7,379 nt of DNA from a virus (Duplodnaviria; Heunggongvirae; Uroviricota; Caudoviricetes), in the IMG/VR virus record IMGVR_UViG_3300028969_000089. One strand, written 5' to 3'. Positions within the stretch are counted from its first letter, which is position 1; the number at the start of each line of letters is the position of its first letter. The notes under the pieces were generated by a model, which saw nothing but the letters and a program-made list of their open reading frames with translations, had not been told where the DNA came from and ran no database searches. Shown here in pieces: positions 1 to 7,379 of this stretch. The position numbers and the translations under genes were made by a program.

Positions 1-82
1 AAATGTGGCCTGGCTGCACTCTGAAGTCACCGCATGGATGGCCGGGCGCATTGCCGGACGCAAACGGGGGTACGACGCATGA
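1..82 (+). CDS. 3' end of Vis/AlpA-family small DNA-binding regulator (5' truncated by window edge)
   Basis: Aligns base-for-base with 6744..6825, the 3' end of the complete 88-aa ORF 6559..6825. Reading frame ends at stop TGA 80..82, encoding ...[26 protein letters not shown]. Confidence 0.6.
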
Positions 83-117
83 TGATGCCCGCTCTGCAAA
101 AACTCCCTTTTTCTGGC

Positions 118-147
118 TTGCCTTTTTCCGGCATTTGCGGATATAGT
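118..147 (+). promoter_or_regulatory. Sigma70-like promoter, candidate early promoter of the left operon (P4 PLE equivalent)
   Basis: TTGCCT (118..123), 18-nt spacer, TATAGT (142..147), directly downstream of the vis stop. Identical hexamers at 6861..6866 and 6885..6890 in copy B. Confidence 0.4.
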
Positions 148-210
148 TTTTCCGCTGTCGCAAAATCGGCAGCCGGGCGTGAGAACCCGAGCAATTCACA
201 GGCGACATAT

Positions 211-232
211 GACGCGCCACGCGTCTTTTTTT
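211..232 (+). terminator. Intrinsic terminator-like hairpin in the leader
   Basis: GACGCG (211..216), loop CCA, CGCGTC (220..225), then seven T (226..232). Copy B keeps a GACGC/GCGTC stem plus T7 at 6954..6975. Confidence 0.45.
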
Positions 233-390
233 GTGTCGCAATCAATGCCACAGAGCGCCAGATTATGGTGTGGTGTGTGGTCAGTCGTGCAGATGGCATT
301 CCGTGCATCCTGCCCGCGTCCGCTCATTATGCCGCAGAGTCAATGGTAGCTCAGGCGGGGCAGCCTCCGGGCTGGCCGGTATCCTGTGAA

Positions 391-452
391 GCCGGTATTC
401 TCACCCCCGTCTGGGCTATCGCCATCGAGCGTGAGAACTCCGGCGATAGCGT
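391..452 (+). ncRNA. Candidate CI-like immunity RNA core (62-nt block identical in both repeat copies)
   Basis: The 62 nt at 391..452 are identical to 7125..7186 while the 10 nt immediately upstream and the sequence downstream differ. Contains a 9-bp stem GCTATCGCC (415..423) / GGCGATAGC (442..450) with an 18-nt loop exposing GTGAGAAC (431..438), and an upstream TTCTCAC (398..404) complementary to GTGAGAA. Confidence 0.35.
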
Positions 453-480
453 TATTTGCTATTCACAGGAGGCTGCCATC

Positions 481-678
481 ATGGCTACAACCCTTACCCC
501 CTCACACCCTGAATTTGTCTTTGTGTTTGCGGCTGTCCGTCGCGCAGACCGTCATCCCCGTATCTGTATGCTTCGCACCGTCGCCGGTGATGAACGCAGT
601 GCCCGCCGTTCCCTTGTCCGTGACTATGTGCTCTCCCTTGCTGCCCGTCTGCCGGTGGTGGAGGTGTCCCGTGCGTAA
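481..678 (+). CDS. Small conserved protein (65 aa) downstream of the CI-like block; function unknown (Kil/Eps position of a P4-type left operon)
   Basis: ATG 481 preceded by AGGAGG (467..472) with an 8-nt spacer. Copy B (7215..7379) differs at only three positions across the 55 aligned codons, all synonymous third-base changes (ACA/ACG, CCC/CCT, TGT/TGC). Confidence 0.55.
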
Positions 679-958
679 TAAAAAAGCCCCTCAGACCGTC
701 TCAGCGCGTCATGACGCCCGTGAACACCTCAGCATTGAGGCTTATCATAAGCTCAACCGTGCCAGCGCCGTATCCCAGTTTGTTGGGGGTGATTTGATTC
801 ACCGTGAACTCTCCGGCCTGCATCAGCTCTACATTCCGCATATTTTCAGCTACCTGAATGAAGATATTGATTTTGTGCTGAATGAGCTGAAAGCCAAAGG
901 CCTGTGCCGCGATTTTCTCGCCCAGCAGAAAGACCGGGGAGACAGGACGCATGTTTGA
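671..958 (+). CDS. Hypothetical small protein (95 aa), probably translationally coupled to the preceding ORF
   Basis: GTG 671 overlaps the upstream stop (GTGCGTAA) and is preceded by GGAGG (660..664). No in-frame ATG. The long 190-aa frame 386..958 would have to run through the conserved RNA block, so the short form is preferred. Confidence 0.4.
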
Positions 959-1011
959 TTTTCCCCAGCTCCACCACTTGCTCTTCCGGATACGTCCGGA
1001 GAAATCCTAAA

Positions 1012-1044: not shown

Positions 1045-1088
1045 GTGTCTACCATTGTCCGAGGATATCCAGCTAAATCCAGTGATTA

Positions 1089-1140
1089 TTGGTATACGTT
1101 TAGGTATACGGTAGGATGTATACCTAAACGCGTATACCAA
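1089..1140. promoter_or_regulatory. Imperfect 21-bp inverted repeat with four GGTATAC/GTATACC heptamers upstream of int; candidate integrase or regulator binding region
   Basis: Left arm TTGGTATACGTTTAGGTATAC (1089..1109) and right arm GTATACCTAAACGCGTATACCAA (1118..1140) are reverse complements apart from one inserted base, separated by 8 bp, ending 20 bp before the int start. Confidence 0.4.
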
Positions 1141-1160
1141 TTCATGAAGGAGCGGCCACA

Positions 1161-2399: not shown

Positions 2400-3758
2400 A
2401 TGCCAAATAACTACCATCAATACATCGAAGACGTTAGTGATGATATAAAGACATGTCTTGAAGGAATGGGATGCCAACCCATACTTTTTGTTGGATCGGG
2501 ATTAACCAAGAGATATCTTTCTGGCCCAAACTGGGAAGAACTTCTTCAGCAACTTGCTAATGAATGTCCTAACATCGATAAAAGATTTGCCTATTATAAA
2601 CAGAAATACCCCGAGTTGATTGATATCGGCAGTGTATTTTCTGATTCTTATAACGAGTGGGCATGGGGTGATGGAGAGAAAGAATTTCCAGCAGAGTTAT
2701 TTGATGCAGGCAATGAGCCAAGTATTTATTTTAAATACAAAGTATCTAGTATTTTCAACTCATTGTTACAAGAAAAAGAAATCGTAAACAACGGTGAAAT
2801 TGAACTTCTGAGAAAGATTCACCCTCATTCAATCATCACAACAAATTACGACAAATTACTTGAATCGATATATCCTGAGTTTACCCCCATTATAGGCCAA
2901 AAAATCCTTTACGCTAATCACGGTAGCATTGGTGAAATACTTAAAATACATGGTTGCTGCTCCACTCCTGAAAGCATAATAATAAACCGCGATGACTACG
3001 ATGACTTCATAAAGAAGAAGAAATATTTAAGCGCAAAACTGCTTACTTTCTTTGCTGAACACCCTCTTCTATTTATAGGTTACAGCGCAGAAGACTCGAA
3101 CATAAAAAACATACTATCTGATATTGATGAACTACTTTCAGAAAATGGAGATGTCATTCCAAATATATACATTTTAGAATGGACGAGCAAACAAAATGAA
3201 AGTGAATACCCACGCCGTGAACGGCTGATTCAAGTATCTGCAAACAAAAGCATTAGAATAAAAAGTATAGTAGCAAATGACTTCTCTTGGGTATTTTCAG
3301 CGTTTGGCGCGAACAGAGCACTTGATAACATAAATCCCAAATTATTGAGGGCACTTTTAGCTCGCACTTACGATCTCGTCAGAACTGATATACCTCGCAA
3401 TCCTGTCCAAGTTGATTACCGAGTTTTATCAAGCATTAGCGAGTCAGAAGGTGAATTAGCGAAATTATATGGTATCGCCACATCGTCAGATGGTATGGCA
3501 TTTAATGCCAGTTATCCTTTTACTTTAACCACGCTAGGGCAATCACTTGGTTTCAAAGGCTGGCATGATGCGAACAAACTATTAGAAGTAGTTAAAAACA
3601 TCACGAACGTAGACATCAAGACATTCGATAACAAATACCACTATGCAATAATGAACGGTGATGAGATTCAGTCCCATAGATATTCAAACTATCTTCGAGA
3701 ACTCCTCGAAAAGGTTAGGGATGGAGAGGAGTTTGAGTTAGGAATAAAGGCTCCATAA
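2400..3758 (+). CDS. SIR2-like (SIR2_2-type) putative NAD+-hydrolase, candidate standalone antiphage defence protein with an uncharacterised C-terminal domain
   Basis: 452-aa ORF with AAGGAG at 2388..2393. Motifs read directly: ILFVGSGLTKRYLSGPNWEELL (Gly-rich NAD pocket), ITTNYD (Asn149, codon 2844..2846), KIHG (His184, codon 2949..2951), LFIGYSAED. Gene is markedly AT-rich against GC-rich flanks and starts 25 bp after the int stop. Confidence 0.8.
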   Translation: MPNNYHQYIEDVSDDIKTCLEGMGCQPILFVGSGLTKRYLSGPNWEELLQQLANECPNIDKRFAYYKQKYPELIDIGSVFSDSYNEWAWGDGEKEFPAELFDAGNEPSIYFKYKVSSIFNSLLQEKEIVNNGEIELLRKIHPHSIITTNYDKLLESIYPEFTPIIGQKILYANHGSIGEILKIHGCCSTPESIIINRDDYDDFIKKKKYLSAKLLTFFAEHPLLFIGYSAEDSNIKNILSDIDELLSENGDVIPNIYILEWTSKQNESEYPRRERLIQVSANKSIRIKSIVANDFSWVFSAFGANRALDNINPKLLRALLARTYDLVRTDIPRNPVQVDYRVLSSISESEGELAKLYGIATSSDGMAFNASYPFTLTTLGQSLGFKGWHDANKLLEVVKNITNVDIKTFDNKYHYAIMNGDEIQSHRYSNYLRELLEKVRDGEEFELGIKAP

Positions 3759-3809: not shown

Positions 3810-3945
3810 CACAGCATTATTCATGCTTCTAGCACGATATGATGAACCGCAATAATCATAGCTAACAGGATTAATTTAAAGCATTACTCCTCGACTGAAG
3901 CGTGCTGTCATGCGAAAAAAATTTAAACTACCACGTTAGCGCGCA

Positions 3946-3964
3946 GTGCTTTCCCCGCCTCGCC
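3946..3964. other. Candidate cos site (P2/P4-type 19-nt cohesive end)
   Basis: GTGCTTTCCCCGCCTCGCC is the exact reverse complement of GGCGAGGCGGGGAAAGCAC, which I recall as the P2/P4 cohesive-end sequence. It lies between the cargo gene and psu, as cos does in P4. Confidence 0.6.
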
Positions 3965-4066
3965 CGCCCGCTTTGCGGGGCGGTTTTAATGCAGTTGCAC
4001 TGACACGCTCAGACCGCGCCGGGAATGGTGCGGTCTGCAGAAAATGAGGCAGGAAAACGCATGCAA

Positions 4067-4098
4067 AGCCATGCACCTTATCGATGCATGGCTTTTTT
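4067..4098 (+). terminator. Hairpin plus T-tract in the cos-to-psu spacer (terminator-like)
   Basis: 9-bp stem AGCCATGCA (4067..4075) / TGCATGGCT (4085..4093), 9-nt loop, T-run to 4098. It is oriented to stop plus-strand read-through into antisense psu. Confidence 0.35.
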
Positions 4099-4128
4099 CA
4101 GTAAAAACGGGCGGATTTTCGGGGAATT

Positions 4129-4701
4129 TTACACAGACTGACGTGATGCCAGTTGCGCACTTTTACGCGAAAAAATCATGTTCTGCGCAGGGGTGAATTT
4201 TTCACGGCTGTCATCCACCGAAGCCGCGTCAGGCCTGAATCCGATGGCCGTTAAAATGTCGCTATCCTGTGCGGAATAATTAATTTTTTCCCCCTTCGCA
4301 AGCCAGGACAGAAGGGCTTCACGCAGGGCATCTGTGGCACGCTGTATGGCACAGTTTCGGGCAATGACCGTCAGCTCACTGTAGCCCATCAGCTCCGGTG
4401 CCAGTGCCGCCGCCAGTGCTGTGCCGTGCTGCTGCATAAAATCATTCAGCCGGTCGCGGATGCTGATGTGCTGAACGGCTTCATGCGAACGAATATAACG
4501 ACCGGCGGCCTGATTCACCTGCCATTTTCTGACTTCGATAATATTGCGTAATTCGTCCAAGCGACTGACGTTTCTGCCTTCTCCTGACAGAAGCCGCAGA
4601 TATTCCTGTTCGGCCGCAGCCAGCTCATTTTTGCGTTGCAGCCATGCTGCTTTGTTATTCTGACAGGTGTCAAAGGCCTGCTGTAAGGCTGTGCTTTCCA
4701 T
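4129..4701 (-). CDS. psu: Polarity suppression protein Psu (P4 capsid decoration / Rho antagonist)
   Basis: 190-aa ORF whose sequence (MESTALQQAFDTCQNNKAAWLQRKNELAAAEQEY...) matches my recollection of P4 Psu in length and sequence. Last gene of the sid-delta-psu late operon. Confidence 0.85.
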   Translation of the reverse strand: MESTALQQAFDTCQNNKAAWLQRKNELAAAEQEYLRLLSGEGRNVSRLDELRNIIEVRKWQVNQAAGRYIRSHEAVQHISIRDRLNDFMQQHGTALAAALAPELMGYSELTVIARNCAIQRATDALREALLSWLAKGEKINYSAQDSDILTAIGFRPDAASVDDSREKFTPAQNMIFSRKSAQLASRQSV

Positions 4702-4774
4702 CGTTATCTCTTTCTCATCATGCTGAAGAATAAAAATACGGTGTGCGGCGACGGCCGGTGTTAACCGGCAGCCC

Positions 4775-5275
4775 TCATTCCAGACGCAGCGAATATGATT
4801 GTGTTTTTAACCGTACTGGCGGCAGTTCCTGTTTTTCATGCAGGCGTTCTGCCAGTTCGTCCGGTGTGACCGGGCGGACAATGAAGCGGTTGATGGTCTG
4901 AAGCGTTTTAAACACCAGACCACATCCCGGATCCGTGCACACATAAAAACGCTCGGTGACTTCCTGAGACAGACGCCGCGATGTTCTTGACAGTGCAAGG
5001 CCTTTACATCTCCGACAACAATATCCGGTAACAAGCATTCTTTTCGGGCGTTTCATACTGCCGGAGGCTGACGTCAGTGAATCGCGGTATCTCTGTTTGC
5101 CTGAAATGTATTCCATTCCTGAATCTTTACAGTCAGAGAAAAAGCTTTCACTCGCTTCAAATGTCGCAGAGCAATAAATATTCCGGCACTGTGCAATCAT
5201 TATCTTGGTGCCATCGTCCATGAAATGTGCGCGACGGGTGTGAGCAACATGTCCACACGACGGGCAGTAAATCAT
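4775..5275 (-). CDS. delta: Delta, Ogr/Delta-family zinc-finger late transcription activator
   Basis: 166 aa, the length of P4 Delta. Two Ogr-like halves each with Cys pairs (CPSC...CRNIYC and CCRRC...CTDPGC). Start overlaps the sid stop in an ATGA junction at 5272..5275. Confidence 0.85.
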   Translation of the reverse strand: MIYCPSCGHVAHTRRAHFMDDGTKIMIAQCRNIYCSATFEASESFFSDCKDSGMEYISGKQRYRDSLTSASGSMKRPKRMLVTGYCCRRCKGLALSRTSRRLSQEVTERFYVCTDPGCGLVFKTLQTINRFIVRPVTPDELAERLHEKQELPPVRLKTQSYSLRLE

Positions 5276-6006
5276 GACAGCAGTCCTCTGGCCTTAAGCT
5301 CTGCTCCCTGCTGGTCTATTTTGTCCTGCCACACCTTGCGCTGTGCCGGTGTGCCTGCCACCTCATAATCCATGTGCGGGAGTGTTGCCGCTGACAGTCC
5401 GGTCAGCCGGAGAACCGGCTCGCCGGTGAGGCTGATTTGCATCTGTTTAATTTTCTGTTCCAGCGATGATTTCACCTGCTGCATGACAGCCTTTTCCGGT
5501 GCGACGTAGCCCTGATGGCCGGTGGTGTTGGCGAGCGGATTTTCCTGTACCAGGATACTCAGATGCATTGCCCGGACAAGCGCCTCACAGGTTTCATTTA
5601 GGGCGTGTTCCAGCTCATGCTCTGCATACAGACTCAGAAGGTGATGATGTGCCTTCCGGTAGGCGGTGGCCGTGCTGTCACACGCCCCTTTCAGGCGTTC
5701 ACGTTCGAAATTCAGCACCACGGCCAGATTGTCATATTCCTGTACCAGCTCCCGGCGTGCCACGCGCTCAATGTGGCGCTGTTTCAGCTCGTCGCTCAGG
5801 ACACCACCGGCTGCACGAAAGGCCGTGCGCCAGTCGTCAGCGTCGTTTCCGTCGGCCTGCGCCAGCGCATTTTTTTCCTGCTCTGCCCGTTCAATGGCCG
5901 TGATGGTCTCATCCATCAGGCGGGCGTTCTCAAGATGAGCGGCTCTGGCCTTTTCCAGTTGTGCCAGCGCGGGTTGCAGATATTCAGGGATGGTGTTGTC
6001 AGACAT
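5272..6006 (-). CDS. sid: Sid, external scaffold / capsid size determination protein
   Basis: The ORF track extends to 6072, but the ATG at 6004..6006 (MSDNTIPEYL...) has a GGAG 6 nt upstream and gives 244 aa, matching P4 Sid as I recall it. The upstream ATG would overlap the predicted promoter dyads. Confidence 0.8.
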   Translation of the reverse strand: MSDNTIPEYLQPALAQLEKARAAHLENARLMDETITAIERAEQEKNALAQADGNDADDWRTAFRAAGGVLSDELKQRHIERVARRELVQEYDNLAVVLNFERERLKGACDSTATAYRKAHHHLLSLYAEHELEHALNETCEALVRAMHLSILVQENPLANTTGHQGYVAPEKAVMQQVKSSLEQKIKQMQISLTGEPVLRLTGLSAATLPHMDYEVAGTPAQRKVWQDKIDQQGAELKARGLLS

Positions 6007-6040
6007 TTTCCGGCTCCTCGTCACTTCAGGTTGAGAAAAT

Positions 6041-6096
6041 TGTGACGTACACCGGACAACAACACGACGCATTGCAGATGTGCCAGCCCTGACACA
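6041..6096 (-). promoter_or_regulatory. Candidate Psid late promoter with two Ogr/Delta-type TGT-N12-ACA dyads
   Basis: Dyads TGT-N12-ACA at 6041..6058 and 6079..6096, centres 38 bp apart. If the distal dyad is at -55 the start site falls near 6032, about 26 nt upstream of the sid ATG, and the proximal dyad near -17. Confidence 0.5.
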
Positions 6097-6175
6097 GGAG
6101 ACTCATCCTCAGACCGGCAAGCCAGGAAAAGGTCGCAGGAAAAACCGGCTTACTGTTTGTTTTTTTATATTTTAC

Positions 6176-6279
6176 TGTTCACCTCTGTTCACCATAAGAA
6201 AAAAGATAAGTAATACAGTAAGTTAAATGGTGAACAATCGCAGTAATGACTGTTCACCGTCTGTTCACCACTGTTCACC
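6176..6279. repeat. Iteron array: six TGTTCACC octamers (ori/crr-like replication element)
   Basis: Octamers at 6176, 6186, 6251, 6262, 6272 (direct) and 6229..6236 (inverted). Adjacent direct copies are spaced 10 to 11 bp, with an AT-rich stretch between the clusters. TGTTCACC is the repeat I recall as the P4 alpha-protein binding site in ori and crr. Confidence 0.55.
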
Positions 6280-6382
6280 CGCTCATGGACTTTTTGTGCT
6301 GTTTACTACTGTTTGTTTTTATTAATTCGCCGGGAATGAATAAGAAGAAACGATTTGTATTTCACTATAAAAATTACGAATT

Positions 6383-6412
6383 GCTTTAAGTGGCTTTAAA
6401 TGACTTTAAGTG
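6383..6412. repeat. Three tandem 10-bp repeats upstream of vis
   Basis: GCTTTAAGTG (6383..6392), GCTTTAAATG (6393..6402), ACTTTAAGTG (6403..6412): head-to-tail and helically phased. Confidence 0.4.
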
Positions 6413-6438
6413 GGAATGAACAAAAAACACACAGTCAT

Positions 6439-6456
6439 TGTAAGGCGGCCGGAACA
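6439..6456 (+). promoter_or_regulatory. Candidate activator dyad for the rightward late promoter upstream of vis (PLL equivalent)
   Basis: TGT (6439..6441), 12 nt, ACA (6454..6456). Placing it at -55 puts the start site near 6502, about 57 nt upstream of the vis ATG. No convincing -10 hexamer was identified. Confidence 0.25.
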
Positions 6457-6558
6457 AATCCCCCCTGTTGCGTCTGCCAAAAAGATTCACAAAATAAAGC
6501 GCTACCCGAAGCCGGACGGACTTATCCGGTGCTGTATGGACATTAACGAGGTAGCCCG

Positions 6559-6825
6559 ATGCAAGCTGTTTTTTCTTCCCCGTCTCCCTCCCCTGTGACG
6601 CCACTGATGCCGCTGCCGGACATCACGCAGGAGCGTTTTTTACGTCTGCCGGAAGTGATGCACCTGTGCGGCCTGTCACGTTCGACCATCTATGAACTCA
6701 TCCGTAAGGGGGAATTTCCGCCGCAGGTGAGTCTTGGCGGTAAAAATGTGGCCTGGCTGCACTCTGAAGTCACCGCATGGATGGCCGGGCGCATTGCCGG
6801 ACGCAAACGGGGGTACGACGCATGA
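6559..6825 (+). CDS. vis: Vis/AlpA-family small DNA-binding regulator / excisionase-like protein
   Basis: 88-aa ORF with an AlpA-type helix-turn-helix core ([43 protein letters not shown]). Position between the late promoter region and the early promoter matches P4 vis as I recall it. Confidence 0.75.
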
Positions 6826-6860
6826 TGATGCCTGTTCTGCAAAAACTCCCTTTTTCTGGC

Positions 6861-6890
6861 TTGCCTTTTTCCGGCATTTGCGGATATAGT
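6861..6890 (+). promoter_or_regulatory. Sigma70-like promoter, copy B of the candidate early promoter
   Basis: TTGCCT (6861..6866), 18-nt spacer, TATAGT (6885..6890); identical to copy A. Confidence 0.4.
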
Positions 6891-6953
6891 TTTTCCGTTG
6901 CCGCAAAATCGGCAGCCGGGCGTGAGAACCCGAGTATGTTATCGGCGACATAT

Positions 6954-6975
6954 GACGCGCCATGCGTCTTTTTTT
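6954..6975 (+). terminator. Leader hairpin plus T7, copy B
   Basis: GACGC (6954..6958) / GCGTC (6964..6968) with a 5-nt loop, then seven T (6969..6975). Confidence 0.4.
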
Positions 6976-7124
6976 GTGTCGCAATCAACGCCACAGAGCA
7001 CCAGATTATGGTGTGGCGTGTGGTTTGCCGTGCAGGTATGATCCTGTTCGCAATCGCATGTTATGCCTCTGAGTCAATGGTAGCTCAGGCGGGGCAGCCT
7101 CCGGGCTGGCCGGTTTCCGATAAC

Positions 7125-7186
7125 GCCGGTATTCTCACCCCCGTCTGGGCTATCGCCATCGAGCGTGAGAACTCCGGCGATAGCGT
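7125..7186 (+). ncRNA. Candidate CI-like immunity RNA core, copy B
   Basis: 62 nt identical to 391..452, flanked by diverged sequence. Confidence 0.35.
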
Positions 7187-7214
7187 CATTTACGCTGTTA
7201 TCGGAGGTTGCCTT

Positions 7215-7379
7215 ATGGCTACGACCCTTACCCCTTCACACCCTGAATTTGTCTTTGTGTTTGCGGCTGTCCGTCGCGCAGACCGTCATCCCCGTATCTG
7301 CATGCTTCGCACCGTCGCCGGTGATGAACGCAGTGCCCGCCGTTCCCTTGTCCGTGACTATGTGCTCTCCCTTGCTGCC
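7215..7379 (+). CDS. Small conserved protein, copy B (3' truncated by window end)
   Basis: ATG 7215 preceded by GGAGG. The 55 codons visible differ from 481..645 only at three synonymous sites. Confidence 0.5.

What the first reader, a model, noticed from the sequence alone, without database searches (positions are those of the whole stretch)
171..452. Candidate CI-like immunity RNA with a GTGAGAAC / TTCTCAC complementarity triad
A 62-nt block (391..452) is identical in the two repeat copies although the 10 nt just upstream and the following leader are heavily substituted, which argues for constraint at the RNA level. The block holds TTCTCAC (398..404) and a 9-bp stem whose loop exposes GTGAGAAC (431..438). 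A second GTGAGAAC sits at 179..186 just downstream of the putative early promoter and is also conserved in copy B (6922..6929). The arrangement (target, complementary core, second target) resembles the seqA/seqB/seqC RNA immunity mechanism of P4 as I recall it. The leader hairpin at 211..232 may be the controlled terminator.
Basis: partly seen in the sequence, partly recalled or inferred. Interest (0 to 1): 0.6.

Follow-up and report, generated by a model that had tools for sequence, protein, structure and literature searches.

The report
Phage P4 RNA immunity locus, twice

Summary
Window 1-969 is 99.2% identical to phage P4 (NC_001609 8845-7877), so copy A is the canonical P4 immunity region. 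Copy B (6744-7379) is the same region of a P4-like prophage inserted at ssrA.

Rfam places C4 antisense RNA (the family that holds P4 CI RNA) at 339-426 and 7073-7160. It places IsrK/c4-a1b1 (the family that holds P4 seqA) at 141-232 and 6884-6975.

The GTGAGAA/TTCTCAC triad is half of the known seqA-seqB-seqC complementarity. The "heavily substituted" 10 nt (381-390) is the major loop of CI RNA. Its reverse complement recurs upstream (195-202) and on the Shine-Dalgarno sequence of kil (462-470). Copy B carries four compensatory changes at each of the three sites.

Across 29 distinct haplotypes from 86 related elements, both sub-sites covary with both targets: 97-100% of cells are paired, and 6 of 7 to 6 of 9 pairs per helix change on both sides. 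Five bulge alleles and eight loop alleles re-assort.

Mechanism, from the P4 literature: processed CI RNA pairs with seqA and seqC, blocks kil translation, and causes premature termination at t1 (211-232, from memory) and at Rho-dependent timm (481-637).

Verdict: already known, low interest.

The parts
1..82 (+). 3' end of vis/alpA (P4 orf88), copy A. The gene is cut by the window edge.
   Evidence: 99.2% identical to P4. Copy B's full ORF 6559-6825 matches PF05930 Phage_AlpA. P4 annotates it as excisionase and transcriptional regulator.
79..678 (+). Long ORF in frame with kil. Its ATG overlaps the vis stop (ATGA). I take it to be P4 eta, translated only from upstream (PLL) transcripts.
   Evidence: ORF list. 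The frame upstream of the kil ATG stays open for at least 118 codons in 84 of 86 related loci despite indels. RefSeq annotates it as a 600-nt 'Icd-like' CDS. The name eta comes from memory of Forti et al. 1999.
118..147 (+). Sigma-70 promoter TTGCCT-18-TATAGT. This is P4 PLE by position.
   Evidence: Promoter scan. The IsrK model starts at 154, 7 nt downstream. Identical in copy B at 6861-6890.
154..232 (+). Leader RNA homologous to IsrK: two hairpins, a linker and an intrinsic terminator. It carries seqA.
   Evidence: RF01394 at 66.8 bits against a gathering score of 50. RF03163 c4-a1b1 at 141-193 scores 45.1, just below its gathering score of 46.7.
179..202 (+). seqA. The bulge target GUGAGAA (179-185) lies in the loop of hairpin 174-189. 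The loop target UUCACAGG is at 195-202.
   Evidence: Covariation with seqB: 6 of 7 and 6 of 8 pairs change on both sides, with 99.5% and 97.0% of cells paired.
211..232 (+). Intrinsic terminator GACGCG-CCA-CGCGUC followed by U7. Probably P4 t1.
   Evidence: Terminator scan. It matches the terminator of the IsrK model. One compensatory pair, G-C to C-G, appears in 2 haplotypes.
339..426 (+). CI RNA gene (cI). The predicted mature RNA is about 345-424, which is P4 8501-8422. It has a 17-bp stalk, a minor hairpin 361-374, a major hairpin 375-396, a single-stranded bulge 397-404 and a 3' CCA at 422-424.
   Evidence: RF01695 at 74.9 bits. Minimum free energy -49.3 kcal/mol, z = -5.2. The stalk is 100% paired, with 3 pairs changed on both sides.
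382..404 (+). seqB, made of the loop sub-site UCCUGUGAA (382-390) and the bulge sub-site UUCUCAC (398-404).
415..450 (+). 9-bp hairpin that presents the seqC bulge target in its loop. Its 5' arm is also the 3' strand of the CI stalk.
   Evidence: Three pairs change on both sides and 98.5% of cells are paired.
431..470 (+). seqC. The bulge target GUGAGAA is at 431-437. The loop target UUCACAGGA is at 462-470 and overlaps the Shine-Dalgarno sequence AGGAGG at 467-472.
   Evidence: Covariation: 6 of 7 pairs (100% paired) and 6 of 9 pairs (98.4% paired).
481..678 (+). kil (65 aa, Icd-like). It is the first gene translated from PLE transcripts. The cloned timm fragment maps to 481-637.
   Evidence: NF033153 phage_ICD_like at 76.1 bits. 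timm is X51522 8365-8209 (PMC3177188), mapped with the alignment.
671..958 (+). epsilon, the helper derepression protein.
   Evidence: PF25738 Derepression at 170 bits. P4 annotation.
6559..6825 (+). vis/alpA of copy B.
   Evidence: PF05930.
6897..6975 (+). Copy B leader (IsrK-like). It carries seqA-B: GUGAGAA at 6922-6928 and GUUAUCGG at 6938-6945. Its terminator is at 6954-6975.
   Evidence: RF01394 at 67.5 bits, and RF03163 at 50.0 bits at 6884-6936..
7073..7160 (+). Copy B CI RNA. Its loop sub-site is CCGAUAAC (7117-7124). Its bulge UUCUCAC is at 7132-7138.
   Evidence: RF01695 at 76.2 bits. Minimum free energy -47.2 kcal/mol, z = -5.6..
7165..7205 (+). Copy B seqC. GUGAGAA is at 7165-7171. 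GUUAUCGGA is at 7197-7205 and overlaps the Shine-Dalgarno sequence GGAGG at 7203-7207. The kil ATG is at 7215.

Best explanation
The region is the RNA-based immunity module of satellite phage P4, present in two copies. Copy A is P4's own sequence. Copy B belongs to a P4-like prophage at ssrA.

The constitutive promoter at 118-147 (PLE) drives an untranslated leader. Part of that transcription stops at the intrinsic terminator 211-232 and gives a short IsrK-like RNA that carries seqA. Read-through transcripts contain a cloverleaf-like RNA of about 80 nt (CI RNA, about 345-424). According to the P4 literature, RNase P and PNPase cut this RNA out of the transcript.

CI RNA exposes two single-stranded elements, together called seqB: the major loop (382-390) and the bulge (398-404). 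Both pair with seqA (179-185 and 195-202) and with seqC (431-437 and 462-470) on nascent PLE transcripts. Pairing at seqC covers the Shine-Dalgarno sequence of kil. The leader is then left untranslated, and Rho terminates at timm (481-637). Pairing at seqA promotes termination at 211-232. As a result epsilon and the alpha replication genes stay silent in the lysogen, and a superinfecting element with the same specificity is repressed.

Copies A and B share the bulge sub-site but differ at 4 of 8 loop positions, with matched changes in both targets. They are therefore predicted to differ in immunity specificity, as P1 differs from P7.

Shown here: the identity with P4, the RNA family matches, the structures, the complementarity and its covariation, and the overlap with the Shine-Dalgarno sequence. 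Taken from the literature or inferred: processing of the RNA, action in trans, Rho dependence, and the actual degree of heteroimmunity.
For: Window 1-969 matches P4 8845-7877 at 99.2%, and window 3965-7379 matches P4 11624-8201 at 96.9%. Rfam gives C4, IsrK and c4-a1b1 hits in both copies and in divergent relatives from Kosakonia, Enterobacter and Mixta. CI folds score z = -5.2 and -5.6.

The motifs occur only at the predicted sites and above chance. On 29 distinct haplotypes, the seqA:seqB and seqB:seqC helices are 97-100% paired. Six pairs in each helix (of 7, 8 or 9) change on both sides. No shuffle out of 500 reaches the observed covariation score, and slid controls pair at 28-47%.

For the loop sub-site, cognate duplexes are -11.5 to -14.6 kcal/mol and non-cognate duplexes are -1.1 to -6.8 kcal/mol. 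The downstream genes are Icd-like kil and epsilon. Synteny with P4 and with RefSeq prophages agrees.

Literature: CI RNA pairs with seqA and seqC and causes premature termination (PMC4825925). IsrK corresponds to seqA and C4 to CI (PMC3632133). CI RNA is an RNase P substrate (PMC5499578). The timm coordinates come from PMC3177188.
Against: Nothing computed here contradicts this explanation. Four limits remain. There are no expression data for this particular source. Covariation cannot separate pairing in trans from pairing in cis within the primary transcript. c4-a1b1 in copy A scores 45.1, just below its gathering score of 46.7. Copy A's element is truncated after epsilon (junction near 965), so its immunity module may be a remnant with nothing left to repress in cis.
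Confidence: 0.95

Rival explanations
1. The complementarity works mainly in cis. In this reading seqA pairs with seqB inside the read-through transcript, and/or the short terminated leader (the IsrK homologue) acts in trans as a decoy that titrates CI RNA and activates kil translation. This is what was proposed for IsrK-orf45-anrP in Gifsy-1. The classical trans-repressor role would then be secondary.
For: The leader matches the IsrK model at 66.8 and 67.5 bits, terminator included. In Gifsy-1, IsrK supplied in trans activates translation of the downstream genes by pairing with the region that yields the C4-like STnc1160 RNA (PMC4825925). IsrK-like elements of P4-like prophages are required in S. 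Typhi TraDIS (PMC3632133). The covariation fits cis pairing as well as trans pairing.
Against: The sources read here state that CI RNA acts as an antisense RNA on seqA and seqC to cause premature termination (PMC4825925). That a cloned cI region alone confers immunity is my memory of that literature. In Gifsy-1, co-expression of STnc1160 did not relieve the IsrK effect. Copy A is P4 itself, the element in which the repressor role was established.
Confidence: 0.2
2. The conservation of 337-452 reflects protein coding (the long eta / 'cI 137-aa' / 'Icd-like 200-aa' ORF) and not an RNA.
For: An ORF spans the whole region (34/79-678). It stays open for at least 118 codons upstream of kil in 84 of 86 loci, and net indels are multiples of three. 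Databases annotate it as a protein.
Against: The variable positions change amino acids freely but keep base pairing with two distant sites. The region matches a structured-RNA covariance model with stalk covariation. The Icd-like profile matches only residues 12-59 of the 65-aa kil part. Pfam finds nothing in the kil part; the upstream part of the long ORF was not scanned. Both constraints can coexist: translation of eta from upstream transcripts and RNA function from PLE transcripts.
Confidence: 0.03
3. The triad is a chance recurrence of short words within a duplicated segment.
For: The motifs are only 7-8 nt long, and two of the four GTGAGAAC copies follow simply from the duplication.
Against: Within a single copy, each word occurs exactly at the three predicted sites. 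Five bulge alleles and eight loop alleles all keep matching targets in 86 elements.
Confidence: 0.01

Closest known systems
Phage P4 immunity: cI (CI RNA, seqB) with targets seqA and seqC, terminators t1/t4/timm, and the nested kil/eta genes (Ghisotti 1992; Deho 1992; Sabbattini 1995; Forti 1995, 1999, 2002; Briani 1996, 2000)
   Same: Copy A is 99.2% identical in sequence. The promoter, leader, CI cloverleaf, both complementarities, kil, the timm region and epsilon are all the same. Copy B has the same architecture at about 95% identity.
   Different: Copy B's major loop and both loop targets carry four compensatory substitutions, which predicts a different immunity specificity. I recall this being described for the P4 relative phiR73 (Sabbattini 1996, from memory). 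Copy A's element is truncated after epsilon and fused to the ssrA 3' end.
P1/P7 c4-icd-ant immunity (C4 antisense RNA, targets a1b1 and a2b2)
   Same: The RNA family is the same (RF01695). The targets lie upstream (RF03163) and downstream. The downstream target covers the ribosome-binding site of an Icd-like ORF. Specificity is set by a few loop nucleotides, as in P1 versus P7 (PMC12197685). Both RNAs are processed by RNase P.
   Different: The downstream effector is epsilon plus the alpha replication genes, not the Ant antirepressor. P4 additionally uses an intrinsic leader terminator. The bulge sequence differs from the family consensus, UUCUCAC here against UgCcAA, with a matching change in the target.
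IsrK / STnc1160 (orf45) / anrP of Salmonella prophage Gifsy-1
   Same: The leader matches the IsrK model, including its terminator. A processed RNA of about 80 nt lies downstream and is complementary to the leader.
   Different: In Gifsy-1 the short RNA is described as a trans activator of translation of a downstream antirepressor. In P4 the downstream small RNA is the repressor. The gene content downstream also differs.

Membership tests
P4 CI RNA / seqA-seqB-seqC immunity | Homology to the P4 immunity region | tested here: met
   Window 1-969 is 99.2% identical to NC_001609 8845-7877. Copy B's element is 96.9% identical to P4 over 3.4 kb.
P4 CI RNA / seqA-seqB-seqC immunity | A structured small RNA with a stalk, two hairpins and a bulge, matching the C4/CI covariance model | tested here: met
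   RF01695 scores 74.9 and 76.2 bits against a gathering score of 45. Fold z-scores are -5.2 and -5.6. Stalk covariation is seen.
P4 CI RNA / seqA-seqB-seqC immunity | seqB is complementary to one target upstream and one downstream of cI in the same leader | tested here: met
   Covariation is shown.
P4 CI RNA / seqA-seqB-seqC immunity | Position between vis/PLE and kil-epsilon-alpha of the left operon | tested here: met
   For copy A the operon is cut after epsilon.
P4 CI RNA / seqA-seqB-seqC immunity | Processing by RNase P and PNPase to a stable RNA of about 80 nt | not testable with these tools
   Only the 3' CCA (422-424) and the stalk are visible in the sequence.
P4 CI RNA / seqA-seqB-seqC immunity | CI-dependent premature termination (t1, and Rho-dependent timm) | not testable with these tools
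   An intrinsic terminator is present at 211-232. The published timm fragment maps to 481-637.
P1/P7 c4-icd-ant | An upstream a1b1 target element matching RF03163 | tested here: inconclusive
   Copy B scores 50.0, above the gathering score of 46.7. Copy A scores 45.1, just below it.
P1/P7 c4-icd-ant | The downstream target overlaps the ribosome-binding site of an icd-like gene | tested here: met
   The target at 462-470 overlaps AGGAGG at 467-472. NF033153 scores 76.1 bits.
P1/P7 c4-icd-ant | An ant antirepressor gene downstream of icd | tested here: not met
   The next gene is epsilon (PF25738 Derepression). No Ant family hit was found.
IsrK (RF01394) | A covariance-model match that includes the terminator | tested here: met
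   Scores of 66.8 and 67.5 bits against a gathering score of 50. Terminator scan.
IsrK (RF01394) | Hfq binding and trans activation of a downstream antirepressor | not testable with these tools
   No anrP or antQ homologue is in the window.

The most novel reading that the evidence does not exclude
P4-like satellites carry a two-part, re-assorting immunity code. The CI bulge (5 alleles seen) and the CI major loop (8 alleles seen) each co-evolve with matching words in both seqA and seqC, and recombination shuffles the two parts (14 combinations in 86 elements). The tandem pair in this window shares the bulge and differs only in the loop, which would make the loop alone the determinant that allows co-residence. 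Natural recombinants whose seqA no longer matches their own CI (L058, L072) would then be partly immunity-insensitive. The IsrK-like short leader might in addition titrate CI RNA.
Probability: 0.3. Interest if true: 0.35.

Novelty: already known. Interest (0 to 1): 0.12.

Why it matters
It matters little as a discovery. The locus is a textbook example of antisense-RNA-controlled transcription termination, and copy A is P4 itself. The result has three practical uses.

- It corrects database annotation. RefSeq calls the whole RNA region a 200-aa "Icd-like protein", and the P4 record calls it a "transcriptional repressor" protein.
- It gives exact coordinates for both specificity sub-sites.
- It shows, with natural compensatory variation across 86 elements, that P4-like satellites fall into many predicted immunity classes. 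This is relevant for predicting which satellites can co-reside with or exclude each other.

Tried and rejected
The species-level survey is therefore thin.

2. Column-based extraction of the loop:seqC pairing gave 21 false "1 mismatch" calls for copy-B-type sequences, caused by gap placement. An exact-string check then failed on G-U wobble alleles. I relied on the count of structure pairs on alignment A2 instead.

3. I tried to read Sabbattini et al. 1995 (PMC176756) for the published seqA/B/C coordinates, but it is not held. The sub-site coordinates here are derived from complementarity. The names t1 and eta, the size of CI RNA and the phiR73 comparison rest on my memory of the P4 literature.

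4. Two literature searches were too broad or malformed and gave nothing useful.

5. I looked for an anti-terminator alternative to the 211-232 hairpin in simple folds. The terminator forms in the minimum-free-energy structure of both copies without any constraint. How pairing at seqA would enhance termination is therefore not explained by these folds.

6. I searched for the 965 junction in complete E. coli genomes and found none.

7. Weak Rfam hits were dismissed as chance: IsrM at 912-1044 (32.7 bits against a gathering score of 376) and alpha_tmRNA at 3148-3342 (19.2 bits against 50).

Full report
OBSERVATION. The window holds two diverged copies of one module: copy A at 1 to about 970, and copy B at 6744-7379. 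They are 95% identical over 640 nt.
- 391-452 is identical between the copies, while 5 of the 10 positions 381-390 differ, and so does most of 453-480.
- TTCTCAC is at 398-404 and 7132-7138.
- GTGAGAAC is at 179-186, 431-438, 6922-6929 and 7165-7172. That is four copies against 0.21 expected, and no shuffle out of 200 reaches four.
- A 9-bp stem, 415-423 with 442-450, has GTGAGAAC in its loop.
- A terminator-like hairpin at 211-225 is followed by a T-run.

IDENTITY. BLAST against phage P4 (NC_001609) shows that window 1-969 equals P4 8845-7877 at 99.2%. Window 3965-7379 equals P4 11624-8201 at 96.9%, and 3935-3964 continues across cos. Over this stretch, P4 coordinate = 8846 minus window coordinate. 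Copy A is therefore the canonical P4 immunity region itself: the vis 3' end, PLE, the leader, cI, kil and epsilon.

Copy B is the same region of a P4-like prophage. That prophage's integrase (1161-2372) lies next to the 3' end of ssrA. Its hotspot between int and psu holds a SIR2-like gene. RefSeq E. coli genomes carry this element at ssrA with the order int, SIR2, psu, delta, sid, vis, "Icd-like", epsilon, and so on to the primase.

RNA FAMILIES. Rfam gave three sets of hits.
- C4 antisense RNA (RF01695) is at 339-426 (74.9 bits) and 7073-7160 (76.2 bits), against a gathering score of 45.
- IsrK (RF01394) is at 154-231 (66.8 bits) and 6897-6974 (67.5 bits), against a gathering score of 50.
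- c4-a1b1 (RF03163) is at 141-193 (45.1 bits) and 6884-6936 (50.0 bits), against a gathering score of 46.7.
Two open-access papers state that these families are the structural homologues of CI RNA (C4) and seqA (IsrK) of P4 (PMC3632133; PMC4825925). The C4-type fold consists of a 17-bp stalk, a minor hairpin, a major hairpin and an 8-nt single-stranded bulge. It is the minimum-free-energy structure of both copies, at -49.3 and -47.2 kcal/mol with z = -5.2 and -5.6.

- In copy A the loop is UAUCCUGUGAAG (380-391). Its complement TTCACAGG occurs in the window only at 195-202 and 462-469.
- In copy B the loop is UUUCCGAUAACG. Its complement GTTATCGG occurs only at 6938-6945 and 7197-7204.
The four substitutions in the loop are therefore matched by four substitutions at each of two targets.

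The downstream target overlaps the Shine-Dalgarno sequence of the first ORF: AGGAGG at 467-472 with ATG at 481 in copy A, and GGAGG at 7203-7207 with ATG at 7215 in copy B. Together with the bulge triad, this defines seqA (179-202), seqB (382-404) and seqC (431-470). Duplex prediction shows that the complementarity also runs partly through the 3' arm of the major hairpin.

For the loop sub-site, cognate duplexes are -11.5 to -14.6 kcal/mol and non-cognate duplexes are -1.1 to -6.8 kcal/mol.

COMPARATIVE TEST. I fetched 80 IMG/VR loci and 5 genome loci (Kosakonia, Enterobacter, Phytobacter, Kluyvera, Mixta) that encode the 65-aa protein. Apart from one locus cut short upstream, these gave 29 distinct haplotypes of the 350-nt leader. 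Divergent members still hit C4 and IsrK, and three of the five scanned also hit c4-a1b1.

Pair counts for the structures I specified:

| Helix | Pairs changed on both sides | Cells paired |
|---|---|---|
| bulge:seqA | 6 of 7 | 99.5% |
| loop:seqA | 6 of 8 | 97.0% |
| loop:seqC | 6 of 9 | 98.4% |
| bulge:seqC | 6 of 7 | 100% |

Sliding the 3' partners by 1-3 columns drops pairing to 28-47%. No shuffle out of 500 reaches the observed covariation score. The CI stalk has 3 pairs changed on both sides and is 100% paired. The 9-bp seqC hairpin has 3 such pairs and is 98.5% paired.

Five bulge alleles occur: TTCTCAC, TTTCCAC, TTCCTAC, ACGCCAA and CTGCAAA. Eight loop alleles occur. Together they form 14 combinations, so the two sub-sites re-assort.

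The few exceptions look like recombinants or decayed copies. In L058 and L072, seqA does not match the element's own CI while seqC does. In L017 and L062, the loop targets are degraded.

MECHANISM.
- Shown here: the promoter (TTGCCT-18-TATAGT, 118-147), the leader hairpins that present GUGAGAA in a loop, the intrinsic terminator, the CI fold with a 3' CCA at 422-424, the two-site complementarity to seqA and seqC, the overlap with the Shine-Dalgarno sequence, and the gene order kil (Icd-like) then epsilon.
- From the literature read here: CI RNA is processed from the untranslated leader and acts as an antisense RNA on seqA and seqC to cause premature termination. It is an RNase P substrate. The Rho-dependent terminator timm is X51522 8365-8209, which maps to window 481-637 inside kil.
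- From my memory of literature I could not open: the 211-232 hairpin is t1, whose efficiency depends on CI and seqA (Briani et al. 2000). CI RNA is about 79 nt with its 5' end at 8501 (Forti et al. 2002). The long ORF in frame with kil is eta, translated only from PLL transcripts, which makes those transcripts immunity-insensitive (Forti et al. 1999). phiR73 is a heteroimmune loop variant (Sabbattini et al. 1996).
One result fits the eta recollection: the frame upstream of the kil ATG stays open for at least 118 codons in 84 of 86 loci, despite indels.

RIVALS. Covariation cannot distinguish trans pairing from cis pairing. The Gifsy-1 work proposes that the short leader RNA acts in trans as an activator. 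A decoy role for the 154-232 RNA is therefore not excluded, and I give it about 0.2 as an additional function. A purely protein-coding explanation and a chance explanation are both rejected by the pattern of compensatory changes.

CONTEXT AND ODDITIES. Copy A's element ends abruptly. P4 ORF151 is cut at about its eighth codon and joined, through the shared letters CCAGC (965-969), to the last bases of ssrA (CCAGCTCCACCA, 966-977) and to the attL side of the second element. No complete E. coli genome contains this junction. It is either a strain-specific deletion within a tandem pair or an assembly chimera. Tandem and pseudogenised P4-like elements have been reported (PMC8628076). SIR2-domain genes in the P4 hotspot have also been reported (PMC9122126).

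VERDICT. The feature is already known; copy B is one more natural specificity variant of it. Interest is low, at 0.12. The modest added value is the precise map of both sub-sites, the comparative evidence for a re-assorting two-part specificity code, and the correction of protein annotations that cover an RNA gene.

Noticed in passing
window 951-977: The P4-type element of copy A stops about 8 codons into ORF151. It is fused through the shared letters CCAGC to the 3' end of ssrA (CCAGCTCCACCA) and to the attL side of the second element. None of 5,426 complete E. coli genomes contains this junction. It is either a strain-specific deletion in a tandem satellite pair or an assembly chimera.
   Followed up: partly
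window 79-678; L001 14857-15456; NC_001609 8168-8584: Public records annotate the RNA region as protein: RefSeq as a 200-aa 'host cell division inhibitor Icd-like protein', and the P4 record as 'transcriptional repressor, cI gene product AA 1-137'. The Icd-like profile matches only the last 65 aa (kil). Even so, the long frame stays open in 84 of 86 relatives, which fits translation of the nested eta ORF from upstream transcripts.
   Followed up: partly
L058 and L072 (about 1195-1225 and 1395-1425 in each locus): These are natural recombinants whose seqA targets do not match their own CI RNA, while seqC does. L058 has a P4-type seqA loop target with a CTTCGAG-type CI. L072 has both seqA sub-sites from another type. 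The breakpoint lies between seqA and cI. They may be partly immunity-insensitive.
   Followed up: no
L017 and L062, seqC region: The loop allele CCTATGAC has imperfect or deleted loop targets (3 mismatches in seqC). These may be decaying immunity modules.
   Followed up: no
window 2400-3758: A SIR2_2-domain protein of 452 aa (PF13289, 95 bits) with visibly lower G+C sits between int and psu. This is the known anti-phage hotspot of P4-like satellites, and here it replaces P4's gop, beta and cII. In strain MEI4BO-21 the same gene is interrupted by an IS5-like element.
   Followed up: partly
window 1088-1141: Nested perfect inverted repeats built on GGTATAC lie just upstream of the integrase start at 1161: ATTGGTATACG / CGTATACCAAT and CGTTTAGGTATAC / GTATACCTAAACG. 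They could be an operator or integrase arm sites. This stretch has no counterpart in P4.
   Followed up: no
window 6176-6279 and 6383-6412: There are six TGTTCACC iterons (0.22 expected) and three tandem 10-mers GCTTTAAGTG. They correspond to the type 1 and type 2 repeats of P4 ori.
   Followed up: partly
window 415-423: The 3' strand of the CI stalk is also the 5' arm of the seqC hairpin, and both pairings are supported by covariation. The two structures exclude each other in the primary transcript. This could couple CI processing to the presentation of seqC, or it could be the atypical terminator t4 of the P4 literature (from memory).
   Followed up: no
IMG/VR loci L027/L028 and L006/L076: Each pair of satellites comes from one source genome, judged by the shared UViG prefix. 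L027 and L028 have the same bulge and loop alleles. L006 and L076 have different ones. Co-residence therefore does not strictly require different predicted immunity types.
   Followed up: no
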